The notes below the pieces were generated by a model. The model worked only from the letters and a program-made list of their open reading frames with translations, ran no database searches and was not told where the DNA came from. The position numbers and the translations under genes were made by a program. A DNA stretch of 63,317 nucleotides, the filler included, from Rhabdomonas costata (Eukaryota), in NCBI GenBank assembly GCA_019059605.1. It is 29 parts of 29 records of this genome, joined end to end, with 100 filler letters (N's around TTAATTAATTAA, not from the genome) between each part and the next. Parts side by side here need not be neighbours in the genome. Positions count along the whole stretch, not along the records: positions 4,379 to 6,467 come from JAHMHO010005746.1; positions 6,568 to 8,656 come from JAHMHO010005747.1; 27 more parts are not named here. The stretch is one strand, 5' to 3'. Shown here one piece after another: positions 4,379 to 59,308 of the stretch (positions are counted from its first letter, which is position 1; each line of letters begins with the position of its first letter).

Positions 4379-5922
4379 TCGTTATATATATTAGGTCTAT
4401 CAATAACACTTTGAGGTGTAATAATTTTATCGCAAGTATCCTTGTTTCCATCACAGAATGTAGAATTGTATGTGTCTGCTTTGTTCAAAATATTAATACA
4501 TTGCTCAGCACTGGATGCAGGGCAGTTCTTAAGGAAATTCTCTTTAAATGGCGAACAATTCTCTTCTGTTATAACTTGTGGTAAAACTTCTTGATATACT
4601 TTAGGTCTTTCAATAACACTATTAGGTGTAATAATTTCATCACAAATATCTTTGTGACCATCACAGAAGGTAGAATTGAACTGTTTATCATTATTTAATA
4701 TTTGTATGCATTCTTCGTCACTTGATGTTGGGCAGCTCTTAAGGAAATCCTCTTTAAATGGTGAACAATTTTCTTCTGTTATAATTTCTTGATATACTTT
4801 AGGTCTTTCAATTACACTTTTAGGTGTAATAATTTCATCACAAACACCTTTGTGATCATCACAGAATTTAGAATTAAATTGATTATCTTCACTTAATATA
4901 TGCAGACATTGTTCATCACTTGTTTTTGGGCAGTCGTTAAGAATTTCTTGATATACTTTAGATCTATCAATAACATTCTGACGTGTAATAAGTCCGTTAC
5001 ACATTGTCTTATTGTCAGTATTCTTTTTATCACAGAACGTTGGAGTAATGATTTCTTCTAAAACAGCAGTTCTGTTACTTGAATTTTTATTTATAATCTT
5101 ACTACATATTGCGGTATTGGAATTTGGATCATCACAGAAAGATGATGCAATAATTTTTTCACAAATTGATTCATATTTTGTACAAAAATTAGAATCAAAT
5201 ACACCTTTGTTATCAAGTAATTTTACCATTCCCTCTTCTTTTAATTTAGTAAAACAAGAATCGCCATTAATATATGAATCACAGGCTGATCCATTTGTTT
5301 CTGCAAGTACTTCAGTTGTAATAGTAGTACCAAAATTTGACTTACATAAATCTTTATTAGTGGATACAATTTGTTTAATAACATTTGGATGTGATTTGTT
5401 AAATGTTGATTTACCAAATGCACTAACACCATTTTTACGTTCATATTCAGTAAGAAATGAATCTAAATCAACTCGACTGACACAATTTGGAGCAATTACT
5501 AAATCTTTTAAGATTTTATCAGCACCACACGAATCCTCAGACGTCGTAATAAAACCATCGCCAAATTTTGACTTACATAATTCTCTATTGTTATATACAA
5601 TTGAATTAACAACATTTGGATGTGAATTTCTAAATAAATCTGTACCGAAACCAGTAACACCTTTTTGTTTTTCATATTCAGAAATAAATGAATCTAAACC
5701 AACTCGACCGACACAAGTTGGAGCAATTACTAAATCGTTTAACATCTTGTCAGAGCCACATGAATCTGGGGATGTATTAATAATATCTGCAGCACTAGGT
5801 GGAACAGGTATAACTGCACTTCTTATTGCATTTATTTTTTGTACTAATTCCTCTGCAATAACATTTCGTTGTTGTAATTGATTCCTAAACGTTGCATACG
5901 TTGATGAGGGATCACTTGCCAT
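4379..5922 (-). CDS. Cys-rich repeat protein of unknown function (>510 aa, 3'-truncated), probably viral
   Basis: Long intronless ORF. Two ~75-aa repeats (DSCGxDKxLxDLVIAPxCV...LCKSxFG) are followed by repeats of CPxxSxExC...FNSxFCDxHKxxCDEIITPxSVIxRPKVYQE. Confidence 0.9.
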
Positions 5923-6064
5923 TAATATATATTATATATATGTTAAATTTGATATGGGGTGTAATTAAAAACTGACACTTATTTACATTTATATATTCTT
6001 AAATAAATATTTAATTATTTTTTTATTACATTTAAAGAAATTAAAAAATAAAATTATAAAAAAA

Positions 6065-6104
6065 TTATAAATAAGATTATATGTAAATATAATCTTATTT
6101 ATAA
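6065..6104 (-). terminator. Mimivirus-type 3'-end/polyadenylation hairpin
   Basis: Perfect 18-bp stem TTATAAATAAGATTATAT / ATATAATCTTATTTATAA with a 4-nt loop, about 30 nt downstream of the Rpb6 stop. Confidence 0.8.
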
Positions 6105-6133
6105 ATTTTGTATGAAAAAATTTATAAAATTAA

Positions 6134-6400
6134 TTATTCAAAATATAATTCGCTTAATTTCCAATATTCTACTTTTTTATTTGGTAAAATACGTTCGATA
6201 ATATATGGTAATACTCTATGTTTTAATTCTTGTATTGCTATTTCTTCAGCTGTTAATCCATGTGTATTTTTAATTTTAGGTTCTGCACCACGAACCAATT
6301 GTTGTATACGTGTCGGTAAAATTCTATTTCTTTCAAAATTTGTTAATCTCGGTAATGAAATACGTTGATCATTTGGTACGATAACAATTGGTTTATCATG
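6134..6400 (-). CDS. RPB6: DNA-directed RNA polymerase subunit Rpb6, giant-virus type (5' end lost to a fold-back artefact; not in the ORF track)
   Basis: Manual translation HDKPIVIVPNDQRISLPRLTNFERNRILPTRIQQLVRGAEPKIKNTHGLTAEEIAIQELKHRVLPYIIERILPNKKVEYWKLSELYFE* fits the Rpb6 pattern (LTxYERxRILxxR.Q...GA.P...IA..EL....P..I.R.LP....E.W...EL). Confidence 0.9.
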   Translation of the reverse strand, partial: HDKPIVIVPNDQRISLPRLTNFERNRILPTRIQQLVRGAEPKIKNTHGLTAEEIAIQELKHRVLPYIIERILPNKKVEYWKLSELYFE

Positions 6401-6739
6401 TATTTCATTACCGAGATTAACAAATTTTGAAAGAAATAGAATTTTACCGACACGTATACAACACCACNNNNNNNNNNNNNNNNNNNNNNNNNNNNNNNNN
6501 NNNNNNNNNNNTTAATTAATTAANNNNNNNNNNNNNNNNNNNNNNNNNNNNNNNNNNNNNNNNNNNNGGTGTTGTGGGCCTCCTGAAACGCTGCGGCCGT
6601 GGCCGGTCCTTGCACCCTCAGTCCGGTACCGAGCATAGCAACCAACAAAGATTTGCATAATTTCCGCAAATTTGGCGCACACCCTTTGGAATGCCTCTGG
6701 GTGCTTCCCTCACCCAACCTCCAGCCCCACGAAAGGGCA

Positions 6740-10442: not shown

Positions 10443-11372
10443 GTACTCCTCCTCCTGCCTGCAACGCGGTCCCTTGAACGGTCGAACGGTTGCGGCAATT
10501 TTTTTCGCCCCGGTTGCAATAAGAAAACTGCTGCGGGGAGGCCACCGTGTTGCCTATCACTTGCTACTCCCTGGTGGAACCCGTCGCGTTGAATGTGTAA
10601 ACATATTTGCGCGGATGGATGTGTGGAAACTCGAAAGCAATCACACCATTCAGAATGTGTAAGCATATCCGTGGACGGCCGAGCGTTTCTTTTAGAAGGG
10701 TACAGCGAAAGAGGAAGGGAGGACAGGACTGAAACAACGGCCAGGTCTTCTTTAGGTTAAGTCTTCTTTGAGCGTTCCCGGAGCTCATCCATCTTTGCAT
10801 TTTCGCATTCTGAATGGTGTGATTGCTTTCGAGTTCCCACACACCNNNNNNNNNNNNNNNNNNNNNNNNNNNNNNNNNNNNNNNNNNNNTTAATTAATTA
10901 ANNNNNNNNNNNNNNNNNNNNNNNNNNNNNNNNNNNNNNNNNNNNTGTGTGGCAACCCATCAATGTTGATCTTGTGTGGTTGCATGGTTGACCCAACCCC
11001 TTGCGGAGCTCCTATCGGTGTGCGAGCGAGGGCGTGAGCGTGAGGGTGCGCGTATGTGCTTGTTTAGGCACGACTGGTGGGTGCTGATCTGTGAAGAGAA
11101 ACTGACGCAAGGGGTTGGGTCAACCATGCAACCACACAAGATCAACATTGATGGGTTGCCATTCGCTACCGAATATACAGCATCAAGCCGTTACCGAAGA
11201 CCATGCTTGCGGGCGCTTGCGAAAAGCAACCGCTCACAAACGGTAACAGCAATTTCGGCTTCCAAAAAGAAAGGCTTTCAGATGCAAATCACAACCCCGC
11301 TCATCCCGCTTCTATATCCTCCCTCCTCCCCCAAAAAAGAAGAGCCTGCCTCGCCAATACCGGAGGGCACAC

Positions 11373-26059: not shown

Positions 26060-28871
26060 CCGGCGTGTCAGGGGCGCACAATCGTGGGGTTGGCGCGGTG
26101 GCCTTCGCGGGGCCGGGCCGGGTGGTCTCCGGGGGCGCGGAGACCACCCGGCCCACCCCNNNNNNNNNNNNNNNNNNNNNNNNNNNNNNNNNNNNNNNNN
26201 NNNTTAATTAATTAANNNNNNNNNNNNNNNNNNNNNNNNNNNNNNNNNNNNNNNNNNNNGTGTGAGTGCAGGGGGGGTGACACGAGGGAAGAATCTAGCG
26301 GCATTTAGGGCCGAGGAATCGCGGAGCAGGTCAGAGATTTTTTTTGCCACACTTCTGTATGTCAAGGGTGCACCACATCTTGTGCCTAGAAACTTAGTGG
26401 TAATCAACCCTAAAACGCTGCCGGCCTGGGGTCTTTTGCAAATGCAGCAGGCCTCCCGACAGTTTTTGGATTTCGCCCTCGGCCGGTCGGGGATCCCCCC
26501 TTTGGGACTCTTTTGTATCGCTTCGCGCCGCTTTTTGTCCACGCAGCGGAAGGTTTACGACAGCACTCACAGGGTATTTACCAAAAACCACCCACGCCGA
26601 CCGGGAACAGGAAAAACACAAAACAGACAACTGGCTCTTGGCCGCCTGCAGTTCACTGTATCATTGTTACCCCATTTCACGGTGGTCCACTGGGAATCAG
26701 ATTTTCCAAAAAAAAACTTTCACAACGGGTTGGGTCCTTAGCTCGAAGTGAGTTGGCGCTTAAGCAGCCCTCTTGCCCCCTGAGGTTTACTGAAAGCCAA
26801 CAGCGATGGTGCCTGGTCTTTCGAGTGACGGAACTCAGAGGGGAGAATCGCCTCACATCGGCGATCGCCCACAAGAGCGAGGGTGTTGGTCAGCCGAGCA
26901 CACCGCCGCAGTCCGGCCGCGCTAGGACGCATGGCATCGCCGCCTGCCCCAGCCATGATGGCCTCATCACTGACAACGACGTCGTCCTTGCCCGCGGGGC
27001 TGCGAAGCCCATCCTTGCACATCAGCCTGGAGATCTGGGGTGCAAGGAAGGAAAGAGCTGCGCGTTTCCAGCTCATCCAGCCATCTAACTTAGCAATACA
27101 CCACCAAAAACTCGGAGGGAATTCTTTCAGTAAATTTAATTTAAAGCGATGAACCTGTGCTGGGACAGGGGCACCTCTGTCGCTAAGGCCCTGCGAGAAA
27201 AACTCTCCTCTCCCATCGGACAGGTGCTCACCATTTCAAGGTCCAATAACTAACAATTCTGATGGAAAATATCCTTCACGTTTCGATTTTGTTGTTTGTT
27301 TTGCACAAGACCAGTGTCAGGACAATAGGACAACAACAAGTTCCAACAATTACAGCACCAAAAGAACAAAGGGTCACTGCGGCACTTGTGCAGAGTATTC
27401 TTCTCTACCCACAGATGATATCGTGGTGTGAGTGTGTGTGTGTGGGTGCTCAGATACACCTGACTCTGCAGAGTTGCGTAGGCGACATTTCCAAGCCGAA
27501 TCCGGGGGTCCGTTCCCGAATCTGGTCCCGAGCTGCGCCCCGCCTGTGGGTGGGTCGGTGGGTCTATACAGCACAGAGGTATTCTAAGAACAACCTTGGG
27601 CACGAAATTCTGGTATGCTGAGCAGCGACGGCTGCAAAGAAAACATACCGCAAATGGTGCGCTTTTAAAACTGGAAGCTGCGCGACATACTAGGTCAGCG
27701 GATGGATAAAGGGAAGGAAGACGGTATGTGTGGCTTTACTCGAAAACTAGCACTTGTAACTAACTAGCATGTCATACCCTCATCACCGTGTCTGGAAACT
27801 ATGGTGTTATAATAGTGGAGTTCAATCACTGCAAACTCAGCCTTTTGCCGCTGGGCGCGGGTGGTCGCTTCACTGAAGGATATTCCTCTTTTTTGCTTGC
27901 GTTTCCGGCCTATGGTTGTAAAAGAGGAGTGAATGCTGGTCACAGTAAGGGCACCTTCTGCAGAGGGGGCTGTCATCCACAGGGTGAAGGGTGGGGGGAC
28001 AGTTTTCATCTAACTGCAGGCTTTTCGGTGGTGAACGTTGTTTTTGATCAATGTACTGTCTGAAAGAACGAAGCCTCTACAAAAACTAAACGAAGTCTCT
28101 AAACGAAGTCTCTACATATGCTTCTCCGTGCGCCGAAAAGGGCTTTGAAAAACTGCTCTGGGCATTGCTTTCTCGCTCGGCATTGTTGAGAGAAAAGGGA
28201 AGCAAAATCGTGCACACGGGTGCCGAGCTCCTCCAAGCGGAATCACATGGGAAGCCATGTAACAGCCAAGAGCGGGCGTATGCGGCACTAGTTACCCGGT
28301 CGCGATTGCGGAAATCAAGCACGTCCATTTCGGAAGCAAACCCACANNNNNNNNNNNNNNNNNNNNNNNNNNNNNNNNNNNNNNNNNNNNTTAATTAATT
28401 AANNNNNNNNNNNNNNNNNNNNNNNNNNNNNNNNNNNNNNNNNNNNTGTTGTGGGGGTGATCGGCCTCCAGGAAGCCGTCAGGAAGGAGGACGATTATTA
28501 AAGCCCGATGGATGCATTTCCGGCTCCTCAATGCCCGATTTCTGTTGCGTGCAGTCTGCAGTCTGCCTGCGTACTTGGAAAAGAGGAGTCGCTTTCGTCT
28601 GCTTGGCCGCCATTATTTTCTGTCTCTAATGCAGAAAGGCCTCGATCTCTCCGACAGTTTCGGGACGTCGGGAGGTCTGAACATTAAACCTCCCAGAATC
28701 CCTGAGCAAACACGTCCCGATGTTCGCACAAATGTGCAATTTTTGTCTCTGATAGAGCAGTGTGGCACTTCTATCGTCTGCACAACCGCTACAAATCCAC
28801 ATGGGACAGTGCCGTCGGGTATCCCCTGAGAAGCCAAGTTCCTTGCTCCTACCGCCCCGCTTTGTCTTCAG

Positions 28872-32516: not shown

Positions 32517-33493
32517 CTGCACCGCACCCCCAAAACCCCATCCCATTGGCGGGGAAAATGCAAGCCCTTCACATTTCAAGGAAGTCGGCGAGTGCAGCCG
32601 TGCGCTGTGCTCGGTCACCTCGAGATGTGCACTCCGTGGCACAGAGTGGCCAGTTTTAACCATCGGGATGCAAGTACACACGCTGAGTTGGGCAAACACT
32701 GGTACGGATACTGTCAGNNNNNNNNNNNNNNNNNNNNNNNNNNNNNNNNNNNNNNNNNNNNTTAATTAATTAANNNNNNNNNNNNNNNNNNNNNNNNNNN
32801 NNNNNNNNNNNNNNNNNTTTGTGTTGGGCGTTGGGTCTTGTTCCCCCCGTGCTGAGAGTTTCAACTGGACTGCTCTCCTGTATGGTATCCTTCTTCAAAT
32901 GGCTTGGTGTAAATGATCTGAAGAGCTGAGTTTTTTTTGTTTTTGTGCAGGCATTGCTCTGACGGAGGCGCTGCTGCTGTCGAATGTCGTCACAAAGGCC
33001 AAGGGGTTTCCCCAGAGCGGTGTGTAGGCGGCCTTTGCTTGTCTGCTCACACCCGCCCTGTGTTCCCGTGTAGGAGCTAGCAGAACGGAACTGGTGTGAA
33101 GTGCGGCATTTGCTGGCCTCCTCAAGGACTGGCCTTCCAAATCCTGTGAGTGCGCATCGGTTGAGTGTCACCCTCACCGTTCTGGGTGCAGGCTGTTGGA
33201 AATCAAGGTTTGGGGGAAATCTGCCCTCCTGCACGTTTTAGCCCAGCATCATGACAAAACTGTTCCACTTCAACTTTTTGTTCTTCTCCTGTGTTGTGCT
33301 TTTCATTGTGTTGTTGGGTGTAACATTTCCTGGAAAGGAAGGGAGGAGACAGATGTCGCTTTTACGTAACTGCAATTTAGTTTATAGGCATTGTTCCACC
33401 GCGGAGACAGGCACCCAGATACCATAATGGGATGCACCGCGCTGACGCGCGTCGTGCTCGTTGATGTGATGTGGTGGCGGCGGCGTGACCCAG

Positions 33494-34537
33494 CAAAGGA
33501 TGACCTCCTGGTCGCCAGCATCGCCCTGAAGTACACGCAGAGCAACTCCGTGTGCTACGCCCACCGCGGGCAGGTCATTGGGCTCGGCGCGGGGCAGCAG
33601 TCCCGGATCCACTGCACCCGCCTGGCGGGAGAGAAGGCGGATAGCTGGAGGCTTCGCCACCACCCTCGTGTGCTGCAGCTGAAGTGGAAGCCGGTGTGGG
33701 GAGAGACCCGGAACCCCCCCCCTCCTTTTTGGTTTGTCTTGGTGATGTATTGGATCGTATATTTTCAACGTATCCCCCGTAGCACACCAGTATTACTGAA
33801 ATGTCATGATGATCATCTAAATGATGTATACCTATCAGAGACATACATACTCCTTGGGTTGGGATCCATATACCCAAACATATGCCGTTTGCGGTCCCTC
33901 CATAAAAAAGGATGAATTAGATGTGAATGTAGAATTTTCACCGATGTTCGCCTCCTCTGGAGCAATGATCATCCTGAACCACACCCCAGCTTCCCCCCAT
34001 AACACAATTCGTGCTGACTCCCAGGGTATTATATAATATATTATAATATTATATAATAATTAATTATAATAATACATATAGCAGAGACTTCGTCGCTTTG
34101 AAGCAAAAGGAATCTTCGAAAATGGTGGCGTTGCCAGCTGTGTGGTCATGTGACGATTGCCAACAGCTGTGGGTGTTGCTGATTTACATATAACCACTAA
34201 ACGCATATTTCCGGGTTAAAGTGACTATAAAGTTCCCCCACGCACCCTACCACGACCACAGGCAAGACCTTTGTGGTTTGGTAATCAATGGATCCGTTAC
34301 CGTATTCTGTGAGGCCTTTATGTAACCTCTCAGAATGCTGAAGTTAGGACCCCCCCTTGTTCCTCTTAGCGAGTGGTGGTGACCCCTACCCCCCTGTTAC
34401 TTTAGGGTGTGAAGCGCCCCAACAAGTCCAATGCGATTGACCTGCTGGTGTCTGGGGAGATCGCCAACGCCACTCCTGAGGAGAAGGCCGAGTGGGAGGC
34501 CTGCTTTGAGACTGCCCCCGCCCTGTTCACCCGGGAG
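33494..34537 (+). CDS. purH: AICAR transformylase (PurH/ATIC family); exons 33494-33693 and 34406-34537
   Basis: [44 protein letters not shown], then [12 protein letters not shown]. Confidence 0.95.
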
Positions 34538-35004: not shown

Positions 35005-36415
35005 TTTGTTTGGGCTCGCACGGGGATTCGATGCTTTGCACCGCGGGGCTTTCTGTGGCTCCCAACGTTTCCAACGCTTCCTCCGTTGATGTACGTCTTG
35101 ATGTCAGTCCTGCGGGTAGTCTGATGGTGTTATCGGCCCTTCGCCTTTCTGCGTATAACTGGTCGTTTACCCTGGTTGCTCAACCTGCCTTTGTTGGCCG
35201 TTCAGGAAGTGTCCGGGCTATGGTTTTGGTTGATGGAATTCTCTACCCTTGGAATGGGAGCTGGCCCACATCTCTGTTCCAGATTAGTCGTCCACCATCT
35301 TGCAATGGAGCCCCAGTTTTGGGCACGGCGTGCTCGGCAAAGCCCAAAGTTTGCGACGACTTTCAGTTCTTAAATGCCAGCATTGGAGAGTGTCAGTGCA
35401 CTCCTGATGCGGGTGTTTGTACGTCGGGGCAATGTCTGATTACCATCACGGGGACGGCATGCGACGTTGCGCACAGAATTCTTTCTGTGGGTGAGATACT
35501 CTGTTCCAAGTCAATGATTCTTCTCAGTTCCACTCCACTTATTACCCTCATGTTTGGCAACGCAACAAATGTGTCCTCTGAGGCCTTCATCCAGGCAGGC
35601 TCTGAGCATGTTGGAATTCAGGTGGTGCAGATTTTAGGCAACCAGGCCCAAAGCGTGATGCTTTCAGCGGGCTGTCGCGAAGGACAATTCGAGGTTTCCA
35701 ACACCGCACGCTTTGTCGTGGAGAGCACCACCTTTGCCGCCTGTGGCATTACCGCAGACACTCAGTCTCCTGTCGAGCTCCGCAACTCTACTCTCATGGA
35801 TTTCATAGTGACTTCTTCCTCACGAGTAATTCTTCGCTCTGTTGTGATGCAGGGCGTGCAGTCCAGTGTAACAGGCTCCTCGGTCACGATAGACTCCGCA
35901 ACCTTCTCCTTAGGCTCGAATGTTGAGGTGCGCAGCTCGAACCAGAGTGTGGTCTCGGGCCAGATTTCTGGAGGGGGCGCCGCGACTTTTGTTGGGCTCG
36001 TGTTTTGCCTCAACCCCAGCAATGACCCCCGAGACTTCAGCATGGTGGGTTCTTCCCAGAGCTTCTCAGTTGCTGGCTTCCGTCCGTCGAAGGGAAGGCC
36101 GATGCAGCTGATTGCGCCCGTGGCCTCTCCGGCAGGAGGGCTGGTAATCTGCGGGCCTGGGCCCTCGGAAGTGGCGGTGCCCTCTGGCGCAGTCCTGAAC
36201 ATTCTTCTGCAGTGCGCCTCGGGGGGTGGGCCATTTCAGCTCCGCTCCGGAAAGGCTGAGCTGACCCTGAAAGAGGGGGCCATTTTGGAGGTCTGGGAGC
36301 TGGACCCCACTCGCGCGAGCAACCCTGCCCAAGCTGTGGTGTGTAACTTGCCGAGCAGCTTCCGTGTGCGGCTGGGCACCTCTCCGGCCACTTCCGGGAT
36401 GATCTATGTCCTGAG
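35005..36415 (+). CDS. Large extracellular-type protein fragment (single exon of about 1.4 kb); Cys-rich segment plus beta-rich region
   Basis: Long open frame with a CQCTPDAGVCTSGQC segment and a Ser/Val/Thr-rich beta-strand pattern. Likely donor GAG|GTGTGA at ~36415. Confidence 0.7.
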
Positions 36416-38817
36416 GTGTGATGCTTCCTCAGCAGTATTTCCTGCGCTGTGCCTTCTATTTGTTGGTTTTCAGGATTGGACAATGCTGCACTCTTTCTCT
36501 TCTGCTTTTTTTGTGAGCAATAGTATAGGGCGTTTGCATGGGGAAACAAAAAGCCCGGAGAATAAGGAAAGAAAGAGGGGAGGTATTTATGAGGGCCACA
36601 ACAGAAAGAATGTACCAATGAGGGCTACAGTAAGGGGCTGTTGCACACTGTGGAAGTGGGCATAACTTGGTATTATGGGGTTTAAGCAGGTGGACCATTC
36701 CGGTTATTGGCAGGGTGAACAGCGTGCTGCTTCACGTTCTATAAGAGTGAATTTGGTGTGATGCCTCGATTCTGGGTATGTTTCTTTTCGTTGTGGTTTC
36801 TGCAGAAAGGCAGTGCCGTTTTCCGCTTGTAACTAATTGGACCGAGGGGCGCATAGACCCCCGAGACTTGTACAGACTGATATTTGCAGACCTGCTAAGT
36901 GTTAACCGTCTTTCACTGAATTTCAGCCCGTGTATTCCGTTCCTTTCGCATCAGATGCGGTTCAGCGAGTGGGCCCAATGAGGAACCCTTCATAATTGTT
37001 GATAACAACCCGAAAAATGACTATTTCTGCACCGCCTCATTCATCAACACAACCCTCGCCCTCAACTGCACCGTGAGCTCCACCACCACCCNNNNNNNNN
37101 NNNNNNNNNNNNNNNNNNNNNNNNNNNNNNNNNNNTTAATTAATTAANNNNNNNNNNNNNNNNNNNNNNNNNNNNNNNNNNNNNNNNNNNNTGTGTGTGG
37201 GCATGCACTTATGCAACAGCATGATACGAGAACCTTGGTAGTCGCAGCGTCGCTGAGAACCGCAGTGCTTCCATAACGGTCGCGGATGGCGTCTGGGTGT
37301 CGGTCTGCTCCATGATGCTGCAAAAAGGAGTGGTGCCGAGCTTTCAGGCTAGTATCATCATTTAGGCTTTCAGGCTAGTATCATAACAACATCATCTCGT
37401 ATAGAAATACTAGGCATCGCATTGGTAGACTTGTTCTGGGGTCCGGATTCGGCTGATGATGGGAGAAATCCTGTTCAAACATCTCGGATTTGCTTTGGTC
37501 GTGGTTGTGCCACGGGTTTTGAGTTGGTGCCAGACGTGTGGAGCTTGGCCTTCCGATTCCTCTGATCTTGATCGATCGGAGCAGTCGATTCGGGCTAGGG
37601 CTTCCTACAGGAAGTACGGCATTCGGCTTGGGCTTCGCGAGCTGGCTGTGAGTCCACGCGTGCGATCGCGTTTCTGGATTGGGTATGAGCGTTCAGGTCT
37701 AACGCTGCTAACTGTTGCTTACTGTTGGCCTATTCGTCATTTTCAGCGCAGTCATGACAGGGTGCTGTTTGTGTAGGTTGCGGGGCTTCGTGCAGGGTTC
37801 GATCTCGCGTAGTCATGGGTTCGGTCCTTCCGAATATCGTACGTGTGTGTGGACGGGTACCGTACGGTAGATCGTGTCGGGTAGTGTTGTGGCACTGCCC
37901 AGTGCGCTGCTCTGCGGTCCATGTTTGATGCTCCTGCTTCTCCCGCAGCTGTAACAACTTGAATGACGTATGACTGCGTGAATGCTGCATTGGCCTTTGC
38001 TTGGGCGCTGTCGTGCGGTCTTGGTGGGTGAGTGCACGTTCTTATGGAGGAGTCCGTGCATTCCCAGAGCGTTTGTTGTTGCTTTGGCAGCACTGCAAGT
38101 TGTGTGTTGACGGTTGGCGATACTTCTCTGCTCGACAGGTTCTTTGGCGTTTGTGGATGTCTTTACTGTGACAACAATCGATCAACTGGCATTGGCCGTT
38201 CGGTTCTAGTACTCTCTCTGACTATGAATACAGCTACTGCTCGAGTGTTGGGTACAGGTGGGGCTTCTCCTGTAACCCTCAAGAACCAGTGGCCCAGCTA
38301 TGGGTGGGACCCCACACACATGCGGGGGTGAGCTGTTCAATGCACTGCTTTCGGGCTGTGAACAAATATGCCAGATGGGGCCACTGTCTCAAGAGCGCGG
38401 TTCCCTCCGAGACTGGATTCCCCTAGGGGCCCGTACGGAAGCTCATGGACGTCCTATTCGATTTGTAGTACCGGTGCATCATTATCATGACAGTTCCTGT
38501 TTTTGTAGTGTTCGTCATTGTGGGACAGGTAGCATTGGAGAATTGGCGGTGAGAGGAGTTGGTTGCAGTTTCAGACTTTTTGTTTCGCTCCTGACCGTCT
38601 CACCATATGATGTCCACGGTACTGTATAACGTACATACATACACGTTGGTATCACGTGGTGTCGTCCCTAGATGGCCCATCCCGGCAGCCCGGGGAAAAG
38701 AGAAAGGAAAAGATGAATGGGTGGTGGTGGTGGCGATGATGGAGCGCAGATTGTTTTTTCGTCGAATAGGCAAATTGGGGGCATAATGCGTCTGAGCGCG
38801 GGTGGAGCTGCCCCAAC

Positions 38818-41095: not shown

Positions 41096-44000
41096 CTGCA
41101 AAGGGTGGAGATCGCCACTGTAGAAACCACGCGAGTGACTTAACAACCCACAAGAACTTGGAAGAAAATGATGCACAATCAGCATCCGCCCGCACTACTG
41201 ATTTCTTCTTATTTCCACTGCCCACGGTGGCTTTGAAGGCATGCCGCACCACTCCATCCCAACGGACCCCTGGTTGTACTGATCAACCTACTTTGCGTAG
41301 CGGTGCTGTTCAAGCGAGTTAGCGTTCGCTACTTAACTACCCACATACAAATGCTTTTCATCACCTTTTCCTTCTACCCTCTCACGAAACCTTTTGTAGG
41401 CGAAACATCCCTCAAATGAGAGCAACTTGGCACAAGTGCATGAAAAAATGTTCCCAGCACCCAGNNNNNNNNNNNNNNNNNNNNNNNNNNNNNNNNNNNN
41501 NNNNNNNNTTAATTAATTAANNNNNNNNNNNNNNNNNNNNNNNNNNNNNNNNNNNNNNNNNNNNGGTTTTTTGGCTGCGGCTTTCATGTCTTGCCCCTGG
41601 AGTGTCAGGGGTCGCTTTCCTGCGGTCGGCCTCTCCTGCTCTGCGTCACTGTTCTCCCTGGATGCTCCATACTTGATCTCCGCCGCCATCTTTCCCCGAC
41701 CCTTCTCTGCTCCTGGCCCTCTCTCACTCACTCTCACGTCCCCTGCCTCTCTCGCTCGCTCCCGTTGCTGTTGCACTCTCTCTGGCGGTGCTTCCTTCGA
41801 ATGACGACTTTGGTTTTGGCGGGTGCTGTCCCCGTTTTCGGCTTTTGGCCTATCCTTATTCTCCCGCGGAGGACCTGGGGTTGGAATTGGTTGCCTCTCC
41901 TTTCTGGTCATCGCTGACCTTTGTGGAGGGCCTCTGGGGTAAACACCCCTCCCACCTTCCTCGCTGCTGCCACATCCCTCAGCCCCGAGAGGCGGTGGGG
42001 CTGATTATCAAGTGTACAGTGCAGTCGCGGTTTTTTTGTCTTTGTTGGGGCGGGCCGTGTTGCCGCGGCTGCGCCGCCTTGACGCCACCTTGGCTCGCTC
42101 GCAGTGATGATGGCATCCGTTTGTGTGTGTGTTTCCTCTGCTAGTAGTGCGTGCCGTGAACTGTTTCTGTTCATCACCAAATCTGATCTCCTTACTTTTC
42201 CTATCCTTTGCTGACTGCTGTGCAGAACCAGCGGTGGTTTCTTCTGCAGGTTGCTTTTTAGCAAACTGCCTGTTGTAGGTGTTTGTATATTAGCATCCAG
42301 TTCACTGTAGCGATATCACTCTCTGTGCGTGTGTTCTTTTGTCAGTGGCCACCGACAGCGATAAGTCGACTGGTCAAGCGCAGAGGTTGGAGCTCCCTAA
42401 ACCCAAGAAGCCCCAGGCAGCGGAAGAGAGTTTGAAAGCCCGCTGGAGACGGAAATAACCTCCACCGAAAATTGCCTTGTGCACATAATGTGTATGTGTC
42501 CTATCCGTCCACACAAATCAGTGTCTGCGCGTGGCCAAACAATCTCCGTCCAGCATTAAGGGGCTATCCAAATCCCACATCCCATCTGTATTAAGGCATC
42601 CAGGATGCAGGATGAGGGAAAACGAGAGAAAACGAGAGGCAAAAAGACGGCCACGGCCAACAAGCATACTTCGTGCATCGGTTGTGTTTGTGTTTGAGTT
42701 CTTCTGTGAAGAGCCTTCGATATTCTGCGGAAGCACCTCAGCCCGGGGCAAAGGGAATACCAGATAAGCCTTTACAAACAACAAAAACATCAGCCTCAAA
42801 GGACATGGAAACCTGTCAATGTTTGAGAGAAGCGATATGAGGCAATATATAAGCACCCTGTGACACCACGAACTCGGTAAAGTGCGGACTTAGCTATTTT
42901 TCCTTTCCGGGGTGTGATCGTTTTTCCATTATGCTTGTTGTCGTGTTATCATTTGCTCTCGCAGGTGTTCAAGGTTCCGACCAAGTTTTTCAAGCACACC
43001 GGTGATGTCTTATCGGTGCGCTTCTTTTTCTGTAAAATACCACCTGCCTCATCCTGCTGTCCCGGGTCGGAAGGCCTAACCATTCATTCCCCCACACTAC
43101 TATCCACCTCATCTCGACCAAGATGTGAAAGGGTAAGACTCAGCCCCAGCTGAAACCAATGTATGCGCGGCAATGAGCCTGTGGACTCCTGTGGAGTTCA
43201 AGGGAAGCTTGCGTAAAAGTCTCATGATGACCCTGACATGATGCGGAATTCATCTCAACGTTCAACGTGACTATGGCTGGGCTCTTTGTATTGTTACTTT
43301 CGACAGTATCCATAGGTGAGCGAGAAAGTTAATCTAACGAACGCATTACTGCCAACTTCCGATTAGGTGCTTTTAAATCGTGCAAACTTGCAGTCATTCT
43401 CAAAAATATGCAAGATGGCGCAACTCTCTTAGCTCCCACTCCCACTCTTTTTTTTTGCGATTCGGTGAACGCTGGAAAGCGTGGAAGAGAGGTGTGGGAG
43501 TTGTCTAGTGTTTTCTGCAACAGCAAGAACTCCTTTATTATTTTTGGACATGGTTGTAGGTCTGGTTTGATGACCAGCCGGACTTCACGGAGGTCACGAT
43601 GATGGTGAAAGTGGCCAGCCGGCTGAAGTCCGGCTGGTCATCACACCAACCNNNNNNNNNNNNNNNNNNNNNNNNNNNNNNNNNNNNNNNNNNNNTTAAT
43701 TAATTAANNNNNNNNNNNNNNNNNNNNNNNNNNNNNNNNNNNNNNNNNNNNGTGTGGGTGTGTTTGGGTTGTGTTGGGAACCGTTACCAGTTTTATTAGG
43801 CTCCATCGTAAACTGAAACTTTTGTCGCAGCATTTAGAGCACACGTTCTAGGGATGAACGGTTCAAAATCAGGGCAGGCAGTGCGACGCCTGATGTTTTG
43901 GGGCTGAAGGTGCACGGCGGGGGAAATTTTGACTCAAGGAGTACAAGAAAATACACATACACTGAAAAAACACACTGAAAAAACTTCAGTCAACATTGAT

Positions 44001-56626: not shown

Positions 56627-59308
56627 CTGCGGCTGCATCTCGACATCGGTGGTGGTGGTGGGGTGAAAAGCCGAAAAATCGCTGCAAAAAAATGCCGGTG
56701 CACGTGCAGGTGTCCTTGTCAGCACTATGAGAAAACAGCGATTTTTCGGCTTTACACCCCCCCNNNNNNNNNNNNNNNNNNNNNNNNNNNNNNNNNNNNN
56801 NNNNNNNTTAATTAATTAANNNNNNNNNNNNNNNNNNNNNNNNNNNNNNNNNNNNNNNNNNNNTTTTCTTCCGGGAATCAACTTTTTGTTCTCTCCTTCC
56901 CGCCTTTTCTGCCTGCATCTGCACATTTGCTACGGTGGCCTGCAGAGGTGGGGTTCTGGTTTTGTCCGAATGTCCATAGGTGTCGGAAAACTCCTGGGAT
57001 GTGCGTTTCGTGGCCACCGATGAAGCCACGTCATGGTGTAAACACCCCGAAAACATGAGCAGCACTGCCTCTCTCTACTCGCCAGCGAGCATTTTTCTAC
57101 ACGACACCTTTATGCGTACGTAGCCCCTCGTGCACATAAAAAATGCTTGCCCAGTGTCTCCTTGGTGCTCCCAGGATACTTTTTTTTGCTTCTCAGTATC
57201 TCATGGTGTGTGTTTTGATTCTGCCCGTGGAAGGAATATAATGACAAAGTGTGGGGAATGGAATAAGGAGTGCAGGTCTGATCCATTTCCGCAGCGTGTC
57301 AATTCCAGTTCCTTGTCGGAGCCTCGCCCACTCAAGAGCGGCGTGGCCTGTCCCACTTGTGTCGCTATGTGTTTCGCCATCCCGCACCCACTTCCCTGCG
57401 TACTCCCTACCCTCCTTTCCGCTCCCTCTACTTACGCCGTTGCTCTACCTTTTTTCATGGGTGTGGGTTCAACTTCTTTCGTGGTTTCTCGCCTTCCTGA
57501 ACTTTTCAAAGAATAGCGAGAGTGTGTTTGAGAGAGGGATTTTGCTTTACTCCACCATCCGTCCCTCATTGTGCATACGTTCTGTTGGATTTTTATGCTC
57601 GCCCAGCTCCTCTACCTTTTTTGTGGCTCTTTGGCGGGGAATGAGTGACAGCCCATGCCGTCTGGCGGTTATATTGGAATGCACTGCTTTGACAGCTGCT
57701 GTTGCCATACCTGTTGCCTTTCCAACCCCACCTCATCTCACCTTACCTGCGCCCAATCCCCATTTCCGTCCTTAGGGCCCCTCAGGAACGAAGAAGTAAG
57801 ATGCGGTGCTTCTTCTATGTATGTGTTCTGATTCGTTGTACATTTGTTTGTCACTGGCCTCTCATTACCCCAAGACAGCCTTTTCCTGGGTTGTGTTTCC
57901 TCACCCCGATCTGGACGTAGAAGTTCTCTCTACTTCCATACTCGCAAGAACTCTACTTCTGACGACCGGGGAAATCACCTCTCTCCTTGTTCGTTTTGTC
58001 TCTGGCTGACTGGCTCCCGTAGTGAAGTGCTGTACGTGCAACGAGCTGGCGTCTTGCCGCGAGGTGATCTCCGTGGAAACCACGTAGAAAGCGTTAGTTC
58101 ACTGACAGTGACCGTTATCTGCGACACAACGCACCACAAGGCAAGTTGTCTCTTTCGGTTGTCCTGCGTTTAAGCAAAGCCTTTGCATGAGGTGGCCGTG
58201 AAAATTTTTAAGCAAATCTTGGCGAGCAGCATTCCCGATTTATCGATGTGGTTGAAGAACAATCTGGTAGTTCTTAACAAGACACGAGACAAGCACGCCG
58301 CAGCAGAATGACTGAGGATGCTCTACGGATTGTGAAGCAGCACGTTGGTGAGGCACATCCTCACATGATGGCCAGTCTAAGCAATCTTAAAGTCACGCCG
58401 CTGCGTAACCACTCAATGAGGAGGTCGTGAGGATTCGGAGCATGTTGATAAAGGCCGTCCAGACGTGGCTGCCAGTCTTGGAGATCTCGCATGTTTGTGG
58501 AGCAGATAGTCTCTCTCTCAAGTGTTGAGGATTTAACGGCTGCAGCATCGTGAGGACGACACCAACGTGACGGTCTGCCTCTGACCCTCTCGCAGATATC
58601 TCATTGTCCAAGGCTGTATTGCAATTGAGGTCTCTTATGTAGCAAAAAGTATGGGGGGAAATCTCATGCATGAGGCTGTCGTCCTTAATAAACTCGTGGG
58701 CCTGCACCTCGCTCAACCAACGCACCAATGCCACTGCATATGGAGGCCTTGGGGATTGCGAGCAGCCAGCTAGGTGGTGCCCCTCCTTCGTGCCCAATCG
58801 CATAATGCTATGTGACAACAGATACTCACTGCCGTGAACTTTGTGGTTGCCACCTTGTGGTCGCAATGCCGCGCCAACAGACCACCAAAACTTGCGCCAA
58901 TGCTGGACTGATGGGCAGAAAAACCCGCAAGAAAGAAGGAAACCAGGTNNNNNNNNNNNNNNNNNNNNNNNNNNNNNNNNNNNNNNNNNNNNTTAATTAA
59001 TTAANNNNNNNNNNNNNNNNNNNNNNNNNNNNNNNNNNNNNNNNNNNNTGTTGGTTGGGTTATGAGATGCTAAATAAAAACCGCATATCCCAATATTTGT
59101 CATAGCGACCACCAAGCTTTCCAGCGACCGCAACAAATCTCTGAAGTCGGGGGAGGGGGGCGCAGATGGGAGATAAGGCATAATTATAGCCCTCCTCAGA
59201 ACGCCTTTGCCTGTTGCGAGGAGGAAGGGTCGGTGACCAGCGCGATGTGCAATTCGTCTCTCTCATGCTTTGAAGTGTGTGTCTTTGAAGGGCGGATTTG
59301 CACGTCAT

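What the first reader, a model, noticed from the sequence alone, without database searches (positions are those of the whole stretch)
4379..6467. Giant-virus fragment recovered together with a probable euglenozoan host
Seen: the only AT-rich, intronless contig encodes a divergent Rpb6, a post-stop hairpin and a repeat protein. Known: Nucleocytoviricota encode their own Rpb6, and AT-rich Mimiviridae such as Bodo saltans virus infect euglenozoans (a kinetoplastid in that case). Inference: an infecting, ingested or endogenised Mimiviridae-like virus of a euglenid- or diplonemid-like cell, possibly a new virus-host pairing. Intact ORFs argue against an old decayed insertion.
Basis: partly seen in the sequence, partly recalled or inferred. 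Interest (0 to 1): 0.8.

Follow-up and report, generated by a model that had tools for sequence, protein, structure and literature searches.

The report
Giant-virus fragment among eukaryote contigs
One short AT-rich contig in a very fragmented eukaryote assembly is a piece of a mimivirus-like giant virus genome, but nothing available here shows whether the virus infects, contaminates or is integrated into the organism, or what that organism is.

Summary
The window is 29 contigs of about 2.09 kb. Contig 4379-6467 has 28.1% GC, against 44-58% for the other 28. Its minus strand carries:
- the C-terminal 88 codons of an Rpb6/RPABC2 RNA-polymerase subunit;
- an 18-bp perfect hairpin starting 29 nt after the stop (z -4.7, 0 of 200 shuffles);
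- a 514-codon, 28-cysteine tandem-repeat ORF with no detectable relative.

The Rpb6 is truncated by a 64-nt fold-back. Six of the 29 contigs carry the same kind of terminal artefact.

Its best relatives (50-60% identity) are metagenomic proteins. 42 AT-rich IMG/VR loci (20-36% GC), 21 of them named as giant-virus MAGs, encode relatives (33-58%). The two source records I could search carry NCLDV capsid genes. The closest named viral proteins are all Imitervirales. Cellular Rpb6 reaches 31-39% identity and asfarvirus-type 25-31%.

So a giant-virus, Mimiviridae-like origin is well supported, although I could not build a tree that includes cellular sequences. The euglenozoan host and any virus-host link could not be tested: no genome and no reads were available. 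Giant endogenous viral elements are already published for Euglena gracilis, and they keep full-length genes at low GC. Intact ORFs therefore do not argue against integration. This is a new member of a known kind, of modest interest.

The parts
4379..6467 (.). AT-rich contig (2089 bp, GC 0.281), the whole unit described here
   Evidence: It is the only one of the 29 contigs with GC below 0.44.
6134..6399 (-). 3' part of an Rpb6/RPABC2-type RNA-polymerase subunit gene: 88 codons plus the TAA stop at 6134-6136. The 5' end is missing.
   Evidence: Translation. PDB phmmer E 2.6e-10 to yeast RPABC2. AF2 pLDDT 92. Foldseek TMq 0.84-0.90 to Rpb6 proteins.
6400..6463 (.). Fold-back arm: a perfect inverted copy of 6300-6363. 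It is an assembly or library artefact that replaces the true 5' part of the Rpb6 gene.
   Evidence: pair I1: 64 nt, 100% complementary, 36 nt between the arms. The same kind of terminal inverted repeat occurs in 6 of 29 contigs.
6065..6104 (-). Post-stop palindromic hairpin (18-bp perfect A/T-rich stem, 4-nt loop). It is the inferred site of 3'-end formation and polyadenylation for the Rpb6 transcript.
   Evidence: z -4.70, 0 of 200 shuffles fold as well; 18-bp stem beginning 29 nt after the stop. The function is inferred from the Mimiviridae hairpin rule (abstract, passages).
5923..6133 (-). 211-nt AT-rich intergenic region between the Rpb6 stop and the next ATG. It holds the hairpin and presumably the promoter of the downstream gene.
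   Evidence: Sequence read. The recalled mimivirus early-promoter octamer is absent from this contig.
4380..5922 (-). Orphan gene for a cysteine-rich tandem-repeat protein (514 codons seen, 28 Cys). It has an ATG start, and its 3' end is cut by the contig end.
   Evidence: Translation; Cys positions and repeat units. No relative found. dN/dS between repeat units is 0.26-0.85.
4379..4996 (-). Three tandem DNA copies (about 210, 210 and 198 nt spacing) encoding the C-terminal repeat units of 65-70 residues, each unit starting from the same conserved cysteine
   Evidence: family D1: 78% and 62% identity to the reference copy. Protein segments.
5330..5783 (-). Two tandem DNA copies (231-nt spacing) encoding the N-proximal 77-residue repeat units
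   Evidence: family D2: 78% identity., A1 against A2: 57% amino-acid identity.

Best explanation
The contig is a 2.1-kb fragment of the genome of a Nucleocytoviricota virus of the Imitervirales (Mimiviridae in the broad sense) type, with no close sequenced relative.

It carries the 3' end of the virus's own Rpb6 subunit gene. In solved Pol I/II/III and ASFV polymerase structures, Rpb6 is a small subunit of the multi-subunit polymerase. A virus that transcribes in the cytoplasm needs its own copy.

The transcript most likely ends at the 18-bp palindromic hairpin 29 nt after the stop. There it would be cleaved and polyadenylated, as in mimiviruses. This step is inferred, not shown.

A second gene in the same orientation follows 211 nt downstream. 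It encodes a lineage-specific, cysteine-rich tandem-repeat protein of unknown role. My guess is a disulfide-bonded virion or surface-interaction protein.

The contig says nothing about the physical state of the virus. It could be free or infecting, co-sampled, or integrated as a giant endogenous viral element.
For: Composition: GC is 0.281, against 0.441-0.582 for the other 28 contigs.

Rpb6 identity.

Viral affinity:
- The exhaustive phmmer search gives 2060 hits at E<=1e-3, the best at 83.8 bits and 54-60% identity.
- 149 of the 150 best were aligned; P0006 was left out. 114 of the 149 share all three of G38, K44 and N45 with the query (141, 138 and 125 individually). The aligned fly and yeast Rpb6 have other residues at those positions (alignments).
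- 42 IMG/VR loci encode relatives at 33-58% identity, with GC 0.20-0.36.
- The records behind L003 and L008 carry 7 and 3 Capsid_NCLDV matches above cut-off, and L003's record carries VLTF3.
- A named Cafeteria roenbergensis virus Rpb6 (P0251) is among the profile hits. It falls in the same 35-row group as the query in the tree (SH-aLRT 90).
- The top seven BFVD matches are all Imitervirales names, at 26-49% identity.
- By the same method, cellular Rpb6 reaches 31-37% and ASFV 30-31%.

Hairpin. Perfect stems of 10 bp or more follow the Rpb6 stop in 11 of 42 relatives, and 13 of 42 have z < -2.

Gene density: there are two uninterrupted same-strand ORFs, and the longer one is open for 514 codons.
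Against: - No tree with cellular eukaryotic Rpb6 could be built, because no cellular sequence could be obtained.
- A profile of the viral clade scores the query at 98.1 bits but solved cellular Rpb6 at 84-94 bits. The profile alone therefore does not separate viral from cellular.
- The query scores only 47.3 bits against CroV, against 43.5 for yeast.
- The query sits on a long branch (1.17 against a median of 0.41) and no starred clade holds it.
- No other viral hallmark gene is on the contig or in the window. In a blastx against 909 ORFs from the 42 viral loci, only this contig hit, and only through Rpb6.
- The recalled mimivirus early-promoter octamer is not on the contig.
- The repeat protein has no viral relative.
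Confidence: 0.85

Rival explanations
1. The fragment is part of a giant endogenous viral element (GEVE) integrated in the nuclear genome of the organism that supplies the other contigs. It is not an infecting virus.
For: - GEVEs with 25-37% GC, more than 90% coding density, gene lengths comparable to functional homologs and about 50% orphan proteins are documented in Euglena gracilis, whose genome is about 51% GC (PMC12455990, section 4).
- The other contigs in this window average about 52% GC.
- The viral contig carries the same terminal fold-back artefact as five host-type contigs. It therefore went through the same library and assembly.
Against: - There is no host-like flank or junction on the contig. 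One end lies inside the repeat gene and the other in the fold-back.
- The published Euglena GEVEs are Asfuvirales. This Rpb6 is closest to Imitervirales names and only 25-31% identical to asfarvirus-type Rpb6.
- The host's identity is unproven.
Confidence: 0.45
2. The fragment comes from exogenous virus DNA sequenced together with the cell. Possible sources are an active or persistent infection, ingested particles, or a virus of another organism in a non-axenic sample.
For: - The ORFs are intact and the GC is not ameliorated.
- Only 1 of 29 contigs in this size class is viral-type.
- Relatives at 50% identity or below are widespread in environmental metagenomes.
Against: - The same features are kept by GEVEs, so they do not discriminate.
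- No coverage data could be obtained.
- No close relative (more than 60% identity) exists in any collection searched, so the virus cannot be tied to any environment or host.
Confidence: 0.4
3. The contig belongs to an AT-rich cellular contaminant or symbiont (another protist, or a nucleomorph-like genome) whose divergent cellular Rpb6 merely resembles the viral ones.
For: - Pfam scores the fragment below its threshold.
- Identity to yeast Rpb6 is about 39% by my count of the alignment.
- The viral-clade profile scores cellular Rpb6 almost as high as the query.
- No cellular sequences were in the tree.
Against: - All 150 best hits among 1.84 billion representatives outscore the best solved cellular Rpb6 by 20-40 bits.
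- 114 of the 149 aligned hits share all three clade-typical residues G38, K44 and N45 with the query.
- Relatives sit on contigs that carry NCLDV capsid genes.
- The contig has a perfect 18-bp post-stop palindrome, no introns and a short AT-rich spacer.
Confidence: 0.07
4. The fragment belongs to the already published Asfuvirales-type GEVE lineage of Euglena gracilis.
For: - The GC (28%) lies within the published GEVE range of 25-37%.
- One published GEVE (25.4% GC) is described there as possibly from a distinct lineage.
Against: - Rpb6 identity to Abalone asfa-like virus is 25% (rank 15) and to ASFV 30-31%. The seven top-ranked Imitervirales names give 26-49% (only Bodo saltans virus, at 26%, falls below 37%), and metagenomic giant-virus relatives 50-60%.
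- phmmer gives ASFV C147L 33 bits, against 84 bits for the best giant-virus relative.
- The paper's supplements, which list the GEVE proteins, could not be opened.
Confidence: 0.06

Closest known systems
Rpb6 homologues of Imitervirales / Mimiviridae s.l. (Mimivirus LCMiAC01, Hyperionvirus, Terrestrivirus, Tupanvirus, Cafeteria roenbergensis virus)
   Same: Same fold (TMq 0.86-0.90). Same clade-typical residues in the central loop. The AT-rich genome context is also shared.
   Different: Identity to any named virus is only 37-49%, and at most 60% to any metagenomic protein. The sequence sits on a long branch. The N-terminal acidic tail present in relatives cannot be assessed because the gene is truncated.
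Bodo saltans virus (klosneuvirus infecting a kinetoplastid)
   Same: AT-rich genome (25.3% GC) against a host of about 50% GC. ORFs are followed by palindromes that suggest hairpin-based termination (PMC5871332 passages). It encodes an Rpb6 (rank 6).
   Different: Only 26% identity in the structural alignment, so this is not a close relative. BsV's host link is experimental; here there is none.
Giant endogenous viral elements of Euglena gracilis (PMC12455990)
   Same: Low-GC, gene-dense giant-virus DNA rich in orphan genes, inside a eukaryote assembly of about 51% GC.
   Different: Those elements are Asfuvirales. This Rpb6 is nearest to Imitervirales. Integration is shown there and is untestable here. 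The host here is unidentified.
Cellular RPABC2/Rpb6 (Pfam PF01192)
   Same: Homologous over the whole conserved domain without indels: residues 8-86 align to yeast 74-152. Same fold.
   Different: Identity is 31-39%. The fragment is below the Pfam gathering score. It has the viral-type central loop rather than the cellular one.
Mimivirus 'hairpin rule' for transcript 3' ends
   Same: A strong A/T palindrome shortly after the stop codon. Polyadenylation at hairpin-forming palindromes is described for Mimiviridae (PMC4402537 abstract).
   Different: Only one gene end is available. No transcript data exist. Only 11 of 42 relatives show a perfect stem of 10 bp or more after their Rpb6.

Membership tests
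Rpb6 / RPABC2 (PF01192) | Score at or above the Pfam gathering threshold | tested here: not met
   14.3 bits against a cut-off of 26, E 0.043. The query is an 88-residue fragment.
Rpb6 / RPABC2 (PF01192) | Significant full-domain sequence similarity to solved Rpb6 subunits | tested here: met
   E 2.6e-10 to yeast RPABC2 over residues 8-86. 27 of the 31 listed PDB sequences are Rpb6, Rpo6/RpoK or ASFV C147L chains.
Rpb6 / RPABC2 (PF01192) | Rpb6 fold | tested here: met
   AF2 pLDDT 92. TMq 0.84-0.87, rmsd 1.3-1.7 A to Pol II chain F.
Rpb6 / RPABC2 (PF01192) | Complete gene with a start codon | tested here: not met
   The reading frame runs into the fold-back arm with no ATG. The 5' end was lost to an assembly artefact.
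Nucleocytoviricota | Hallmark genes (MCP, PolB, A32, VLTF3) in the same genome | not testable with these tools
   No genome is held for the window. Within the window, only this contig matched ORFs of the 42 viral loci, and only through Rpb6.
Nucleocytoviricota | Nearest relatives of its genes lie on bona fide NCLDV genomes | tested here: met
   42 IMG/VR loci. Capsid_NCLDV gives 7 and 3 matches and VLTF3 one match in the two records that could be searched; three of the five handles asked for in that call were not held. A named CroV protein is among the hits.
Nucleocytoviricota | Rpb6 branches with viral rather than cellular sequences in a phylogeny | not tested
   No cellular eukaryotic Rpb6 could be obtained as a stored sequence. 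The tree holds only viral-type rows.
Imitervirales / Mimiviridae s.l. | Closest named homologues are from this order | tested here: met
   BFVD ranks 1-7 are all Imitervirales names. Marseillevirus-type is at rank 8, asfa-like at rank 15 and pox at rank 27 or lower.
Imitervirales / Mimiviridae s.l. | Palindromic hairpin after the stop codon | tested here: met
   18-bp stem, z -4.70. Only one gene end is available.
Imitervirales / Mimiviridae s.l. | Conserved early-promoter octamer upstream of genes | tested here: inconclusive
   The octamer (recalled) does not occur on this contig. Only one 211-nt intergenic region exists, and late genes lack the motif.
Imitervirales / Mimiviridae s.l. | Order-specific markers such as MutS7 in relatives' genomes | tested here: inconclusive
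   MutS_V was not found in the two searchable relatives' records. These are estimated at 16% and 28% complete.
Giant endogenous viral element | Covalent junction with host DNA | not testable with these tools
   Neither contig end reaches host-type sequence.
Asfuvirales-type Euglena GEVE lineage | Genes closest to asfarvirus homologues | tested here: not met
   Abalone asfa-like virus 25%. ASFV 30-31% and 33 bits. Best giant-virus relatives reach 50-60% and 84 bits.

The most novel reading that the evidence does not exclude
The fragment comes from an unsampled Imitervirales lineage (at most 60% Rpb6 identity to anything in 1.84 billion cluster representatives). That lineage infects, or has recently endogenised in, a euglenid- or diplonemid-like cell. 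If so, it would be the first Mimiviridae-type virus tied to a non-kinetoplastid euglenozoan. It would also be a second giant-virus lineage in that group, distinct from the Asfuvirales GEVEs of Euglena gracilis.
Probability: 0.25. Interest if true: 0.55.

Novelty: new member of a known kind. Interest (0 to 1): 0.3.

Why it matters
Hosts are known for very few giant viruses. In Euglenozoa, a 2021 review names Bodo saltans virus as the only documented DNA virus (PMC8061765 passages). A 2025 paper added Asfuvirales-type endogenous elements in Euglena gracilis (PMC12455990).

A Mimiviridae-type sequence physically tied to a euglenid or diplonemid would add a host lineage for the most abundant aquatic giant viruses.

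As it stands, the evidence is one 2-kb contig with one conserved gene fragment. It flags the assembly as worth screening, but it establishes no pairing.

Tried and rejected
Whole genome and reads
- The whole genome of the window is not held. No binning, coverage or junction test was therefore possible.

Searches for relatives of the Rpb6 fragment
- The word-indexed homology search found nothing: 1 candidate, none scored.
- Single-protein scans of IMG/VR found no close relative.
- The metagenome scan found only two loci, at 49% identity.

Cellular Rpb6 for a tree
- The profile search of the 5.8-billion-cluster collection listed only its best 120 of 550 hits, and no cellular sequence could be picked out of that listing.
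- PDB sequences are not stored proteins and were not typed in. The viral-versus-cellular phylogeny was therefore not done.

Profile discrimination
- The viral-clade HMM scores the query at 98 bits and solved cellular Rpb6 at 84-94 bits. I rejected it as a discriminator.

Repeat protein
- No relative turned up in any search: Pfam, IMG/VR, protein atlas, the cluster collection at near length only, with longer and shorter lengths not searched, tblastn on the 42 viral loci with best E 0.22, PDB and metagenome contigs.
- The single-sequence AlphaFold model has pLDDT 40 and is unusable, so no fold search was run.

Lineage markers in relatives
- MutS_V is absent from the two searchable, very incomplete records. 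In all, six of the eight handles I asked for across searches were not held.

Host identity
- There were no Rfam families and no tRNAs. A recalled 24-nt euglenid spliced-leader motif had no match at up to 3 mismatches.
- Pfam on 20 host-contig ORFs gave only generic eukaryotic domains, in 5 of the 20.

Other
- Earlier-findings look-ups returned nothing.
- The idea that the terminal inverted repeat is a viral hairpin telomere was rejected. It lies inside the Rpb6 coding sequence, and five host-type contigs carry the same artefact.
Full report
**What the window is.** The 63,317-base window is not one locus. It is 29 contigs of 2084-2089 bp, joined by spacers of 44 N, a 12-nt all-frame stop linker and 44 N. 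The finding's coordinates, 4379-6467, are exactly contig 3. Its GC is 0.281. The other 28 contigs have GC 0.441-0.582. Everything below therefore rests on this one contig, its 28 neighbours and public collections.

**Anatomy of the contig.** All features lie on the minus strand.
- From the high-coordinate end, 6400-6463 is a perfect 64-nt inverted copy of 6300-6363, with 36 nt between the arms.
- Below it the frame reads as 88 residues ending in TAA at 6134-6136.
- A perfect 18-bp stem with a 4-nt loop lies at 6065-6104 and starts 29 nt after the stop. Its MFE is -18.6 kcal/mol, against -7.8 +/- 2.3 for 200 dinucleotide shuffles (z -4.70), and none of the shuffles folds as well.
- An ATG at 5922, 211 nt after the stop, opens a frame that stays open for 514 codons until the contig ends at 4379.
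- That ORF holds two 77-residue units and at least three units of 65-70 residues. It has 28 cysteines, conserved between units.
- dN/dS between units is 0.85, 0.54 and 0.26. This is weak evidence that the minus-strand frame has been under constraint.
- A 299-codon frame on the opposite strand is shorter, and I take it to be an antisense by-product.

**The fold-back is an artefact.** The inverted repeat lies inside the Rpb6 coding sequence. It supplies no start codon and ends 4 nt from the contig end. Six of the 29 contigs (3, 5, 6, 12, 20, 26) carry an inverted repeat ending 2-5 nt from a contig end. It is therefore a property of the library or assembler, not of the virus. The consequence is that the N-terminal part of Rpb6 is lost.

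**Is it Rpb6?** Pfam PF01192 gives only 14.3 bits, below its cut-off of 26, so 'divergent' is a fair description. Other tests are clear:
- phmmer against PDB sequences gives yeast RPABC2 at E 2.6e-10 over residues 8-86 without indels. Human, plant, ASFV C147L and archaeal Rpo6 chains follow.
- An AlphaFold model built on a 42-sequence alignment has pLDDT 92.
- The model superposes on Pol II chain F at TMq 0.84-0.87.

**Viral or cellular?**
- An exhaustive phmmer search of 1.84 billion cluster representatives found 2060 proteins at E<=1e-3. The 150 best score 63.8-83.8 bits and reach up to 60% identity. The best solved cellular Rpb6 scores 43.5 bits, at about 39% identity by my count of the printed alignment.
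- I aligned 149 of those 150, leaving out P0006, a 760-residue protein with 12 matched stretches. G38, K44 and N45 of the query are shared by 141, 138 and 125 rows, and 114 rows have all three. The fly and yeast sequences printed have different residues there.
- A pattern scan of IMG/VR with an alignment of these hits returned 42 loci at 33-58% identity. 21 of them carry GVMAG names, on contigs up to 1.15 Mb. All are AT-rich, at GC 0.20-0.36.
- Only two of the eight source records I asked for were held. They carry 7 and 3 Capsid_NCLDV matches above cut-off, and one carries VLTF3.
- A profile search also returned a protein that NCBI names as Cafeteria roenbergensis virus Rpb6.

**Which viral order?** Foldseek of the model against BFVD gives named references.
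- Ranks 1-7 are Mimivirus LCMiAC01 (49% identity), Hyperionvirus (43%), Faunusvirus (38%), Yasminevirus (38%), Tupanvirus (37%), Bodo saltans virus (26%) and Terrestrivirus (42%).
- Marseillevirus-type sequences start at rank 8. Abalone asfa-like virus is rank 15 at 25%. Poxviruses are at rank 27 or lower.
- The same method against PDB gives 31-37% for cellular Rpb6 and 30-31% for ASFV.
- In a quick ML tree of 88 viral-type rows, the query sits on a long branch (1.17 against a median of 0.41). It falls in a 35-row group that also holds CroV (SH-aLRT 90, not starred).

Together these results favour an Imitervirales-type virus without a close sequenced relative.

**Results that cut the other way.**
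- A profile of the viral clade built without the query scores the query at 98.1 bits, but it scores solved cellular Rpb6 at 84-94 bits. The query is thus no closer to the clade consensus than cellular proteins are.
- The query scores 47.3 bits against CroV, barely above yeast.
- I could not bring any cellular eukaryotic Rpb6 into the session as a stored sequence.
- The viral assignment rests on best hits, clade-typical residues, genome context of relatives, composition and the hairpin.

**The hairpin.** Polyadenylation at hairpin-forming palindromes that terminate transcripts is described for Mimiviridae (PMC4402537, abstract seen in the listing). The BsV paper reports ORFs followed by palindromes and a 25.3% GC genome against a host of about 50% GC (PMC5871332, passages). 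Among the 42 relatives, 11 have a perfect stem of 10 bp or more within 100 nt after the Rpb6 stop, and 13 have z < -2. The feature is therefore shared by part of the clade. My rough estimate of the chance expectation for such stems in 25% GC sequence is well under one in 42. That this hairpin directs 3'-end processing here is inference. The recalled mimivirus early-promoter octamer does not occur on the contig, but there is only one intergenic region to look in.

**The repeat protein.** It is an orphan. No relative was found in Pfam, IMG/VR, the protein atlas, the 5.8-billion-cluster collection at near length, the 42 viral loci, PDB or metagenome contigs. The single-sequence structure model is unusable at pLDDT 40. 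Its cysteine pattern and repeat structure suggest a disulfide-bonded structural or surface protein. That is a guess.

**Host and virus-host link.**
- The other contigs carry short, exon-like matches to cNMP_binding, Pkinase, AICARFT/IMPCHase, Guanylate_cyc and ankyrin repeats. These matches occur in 5 of the 20 ORFs scanned. This fits a eukaryotic nuclear genome with interrupted genes.
- Nothing in the window identifies the lineage. There are no Rfam families, no tRNAs and no match to a recalled euglenid spliced-leader motif.
- Their GC of about 52% is compatible with the roughly 51% reported for Euglena gracilis, but that is not diagnostic.
- No other contig in the window matched any of 909 ORFs from the viral loci.
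- The contig has no host-type flank.

The euglenozoan host, and any physical or biological link, therefore remain untested.

**Literature context.**
- A 2021 review states that Bodo saltans virus is the only documented DNA virus of Euglenozoa, and that infection of euglenids and diplonemids had not been verified (PMC8061765, passages).
- A 2025 paper reports eight GEVEs in E. gracilis. They are 86-311 kb, 25-37% GC and more than 90% coding. Their duplicated marker genes have lengths comparable to functional homologs, about half their proteins are orphans, and they are assigned to Asfuvirales (PMC12455990: abstract and section 4 parts 1-2 read; its supplements were closed).
- Two consequences follow. 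Intact ORFs and unameliorated GC do not argue against integration. A giant-virus trace in a euglenid would no longer be new in kind, although an Imitervirales-type one would be.
- Full-text searches for Euglena with Imitervirales (6 papers) and for diplonemid with Nucleocytoviricota (4 papers) turned up no report of such a pairing in the titles and abstracts listed.

**Verdict.** The giant-virus, Mimiviridae-like reading is well supported (confidence about 0.85). The host identity and the pairing cannot be judged. This is a new, fairly divergent member of a known kind, seen through a 2-kb keyhole. Its main value is as a flag to screen the full assembly.

Noticed in passing
window contigs 3, 5, 6, 12, 20, 26 (e.g. 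6300-6463, 10620-10843, 10950-11161, 26115-26154, 43563-43648, 56660-56760): Six of 29 contigs end in an inverted repeat that stops 2-5 nt from a contig end (arms of 25-64 nt in the terminal cases). This looks like a systematic fold-back artefact of the library or assembler. It could create false ORF extensions elsewhere in this assembly.
   Followed up: partly
P0006 (protein): A 760-residue protein in the representative library matches the C-terminal half of the Rpb6 fragment in 12 separate stretches. It looks like a tandem array of Rpb6-like modules.
   Followed up: no
BFVD hits, ranks 18, 21 and 24: Rpb6-like domains appear inside much longer viral proteins: a 619-residue Sylvanvirus protein named as an mRNA capping enzyme domain protein, and Pithovirus proteins of 651 and 1472 residues. 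This suggests Rpb6 fusions in some giant viruses.
   Followed up: no
window 35007-36662 (+): A 552-codon open frame on a 53.6% GC host-type contig has no Pfam match. It is rich in Ser, Val, Gly and Cys and looks like a surface or secreted repeat protein.
   Followed up: partly
window 4982-5878 (+): A 299-codon open frame runs antisense to the cysteine-rich repeat gene. It is probably a by-product of the repeats and the AT-rich codon usage, not a gene.
   Followed up: partly
whole window: Host-type contigs show strong AT skew whose sign changes from contig to contig (about -0.28 to +0.30 per kb). This suggests marked strand asymmetry of the host's transcribed regions.
   Followed up: no
window 33388-33912 (+): A 48-residue exon-like match covers the C-terminal end of AICARFT/IMPCHase (purine synthesis) on a host-type contig. 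The organism therefore appears to encode de novo purine synthesis.
   Followed up: no
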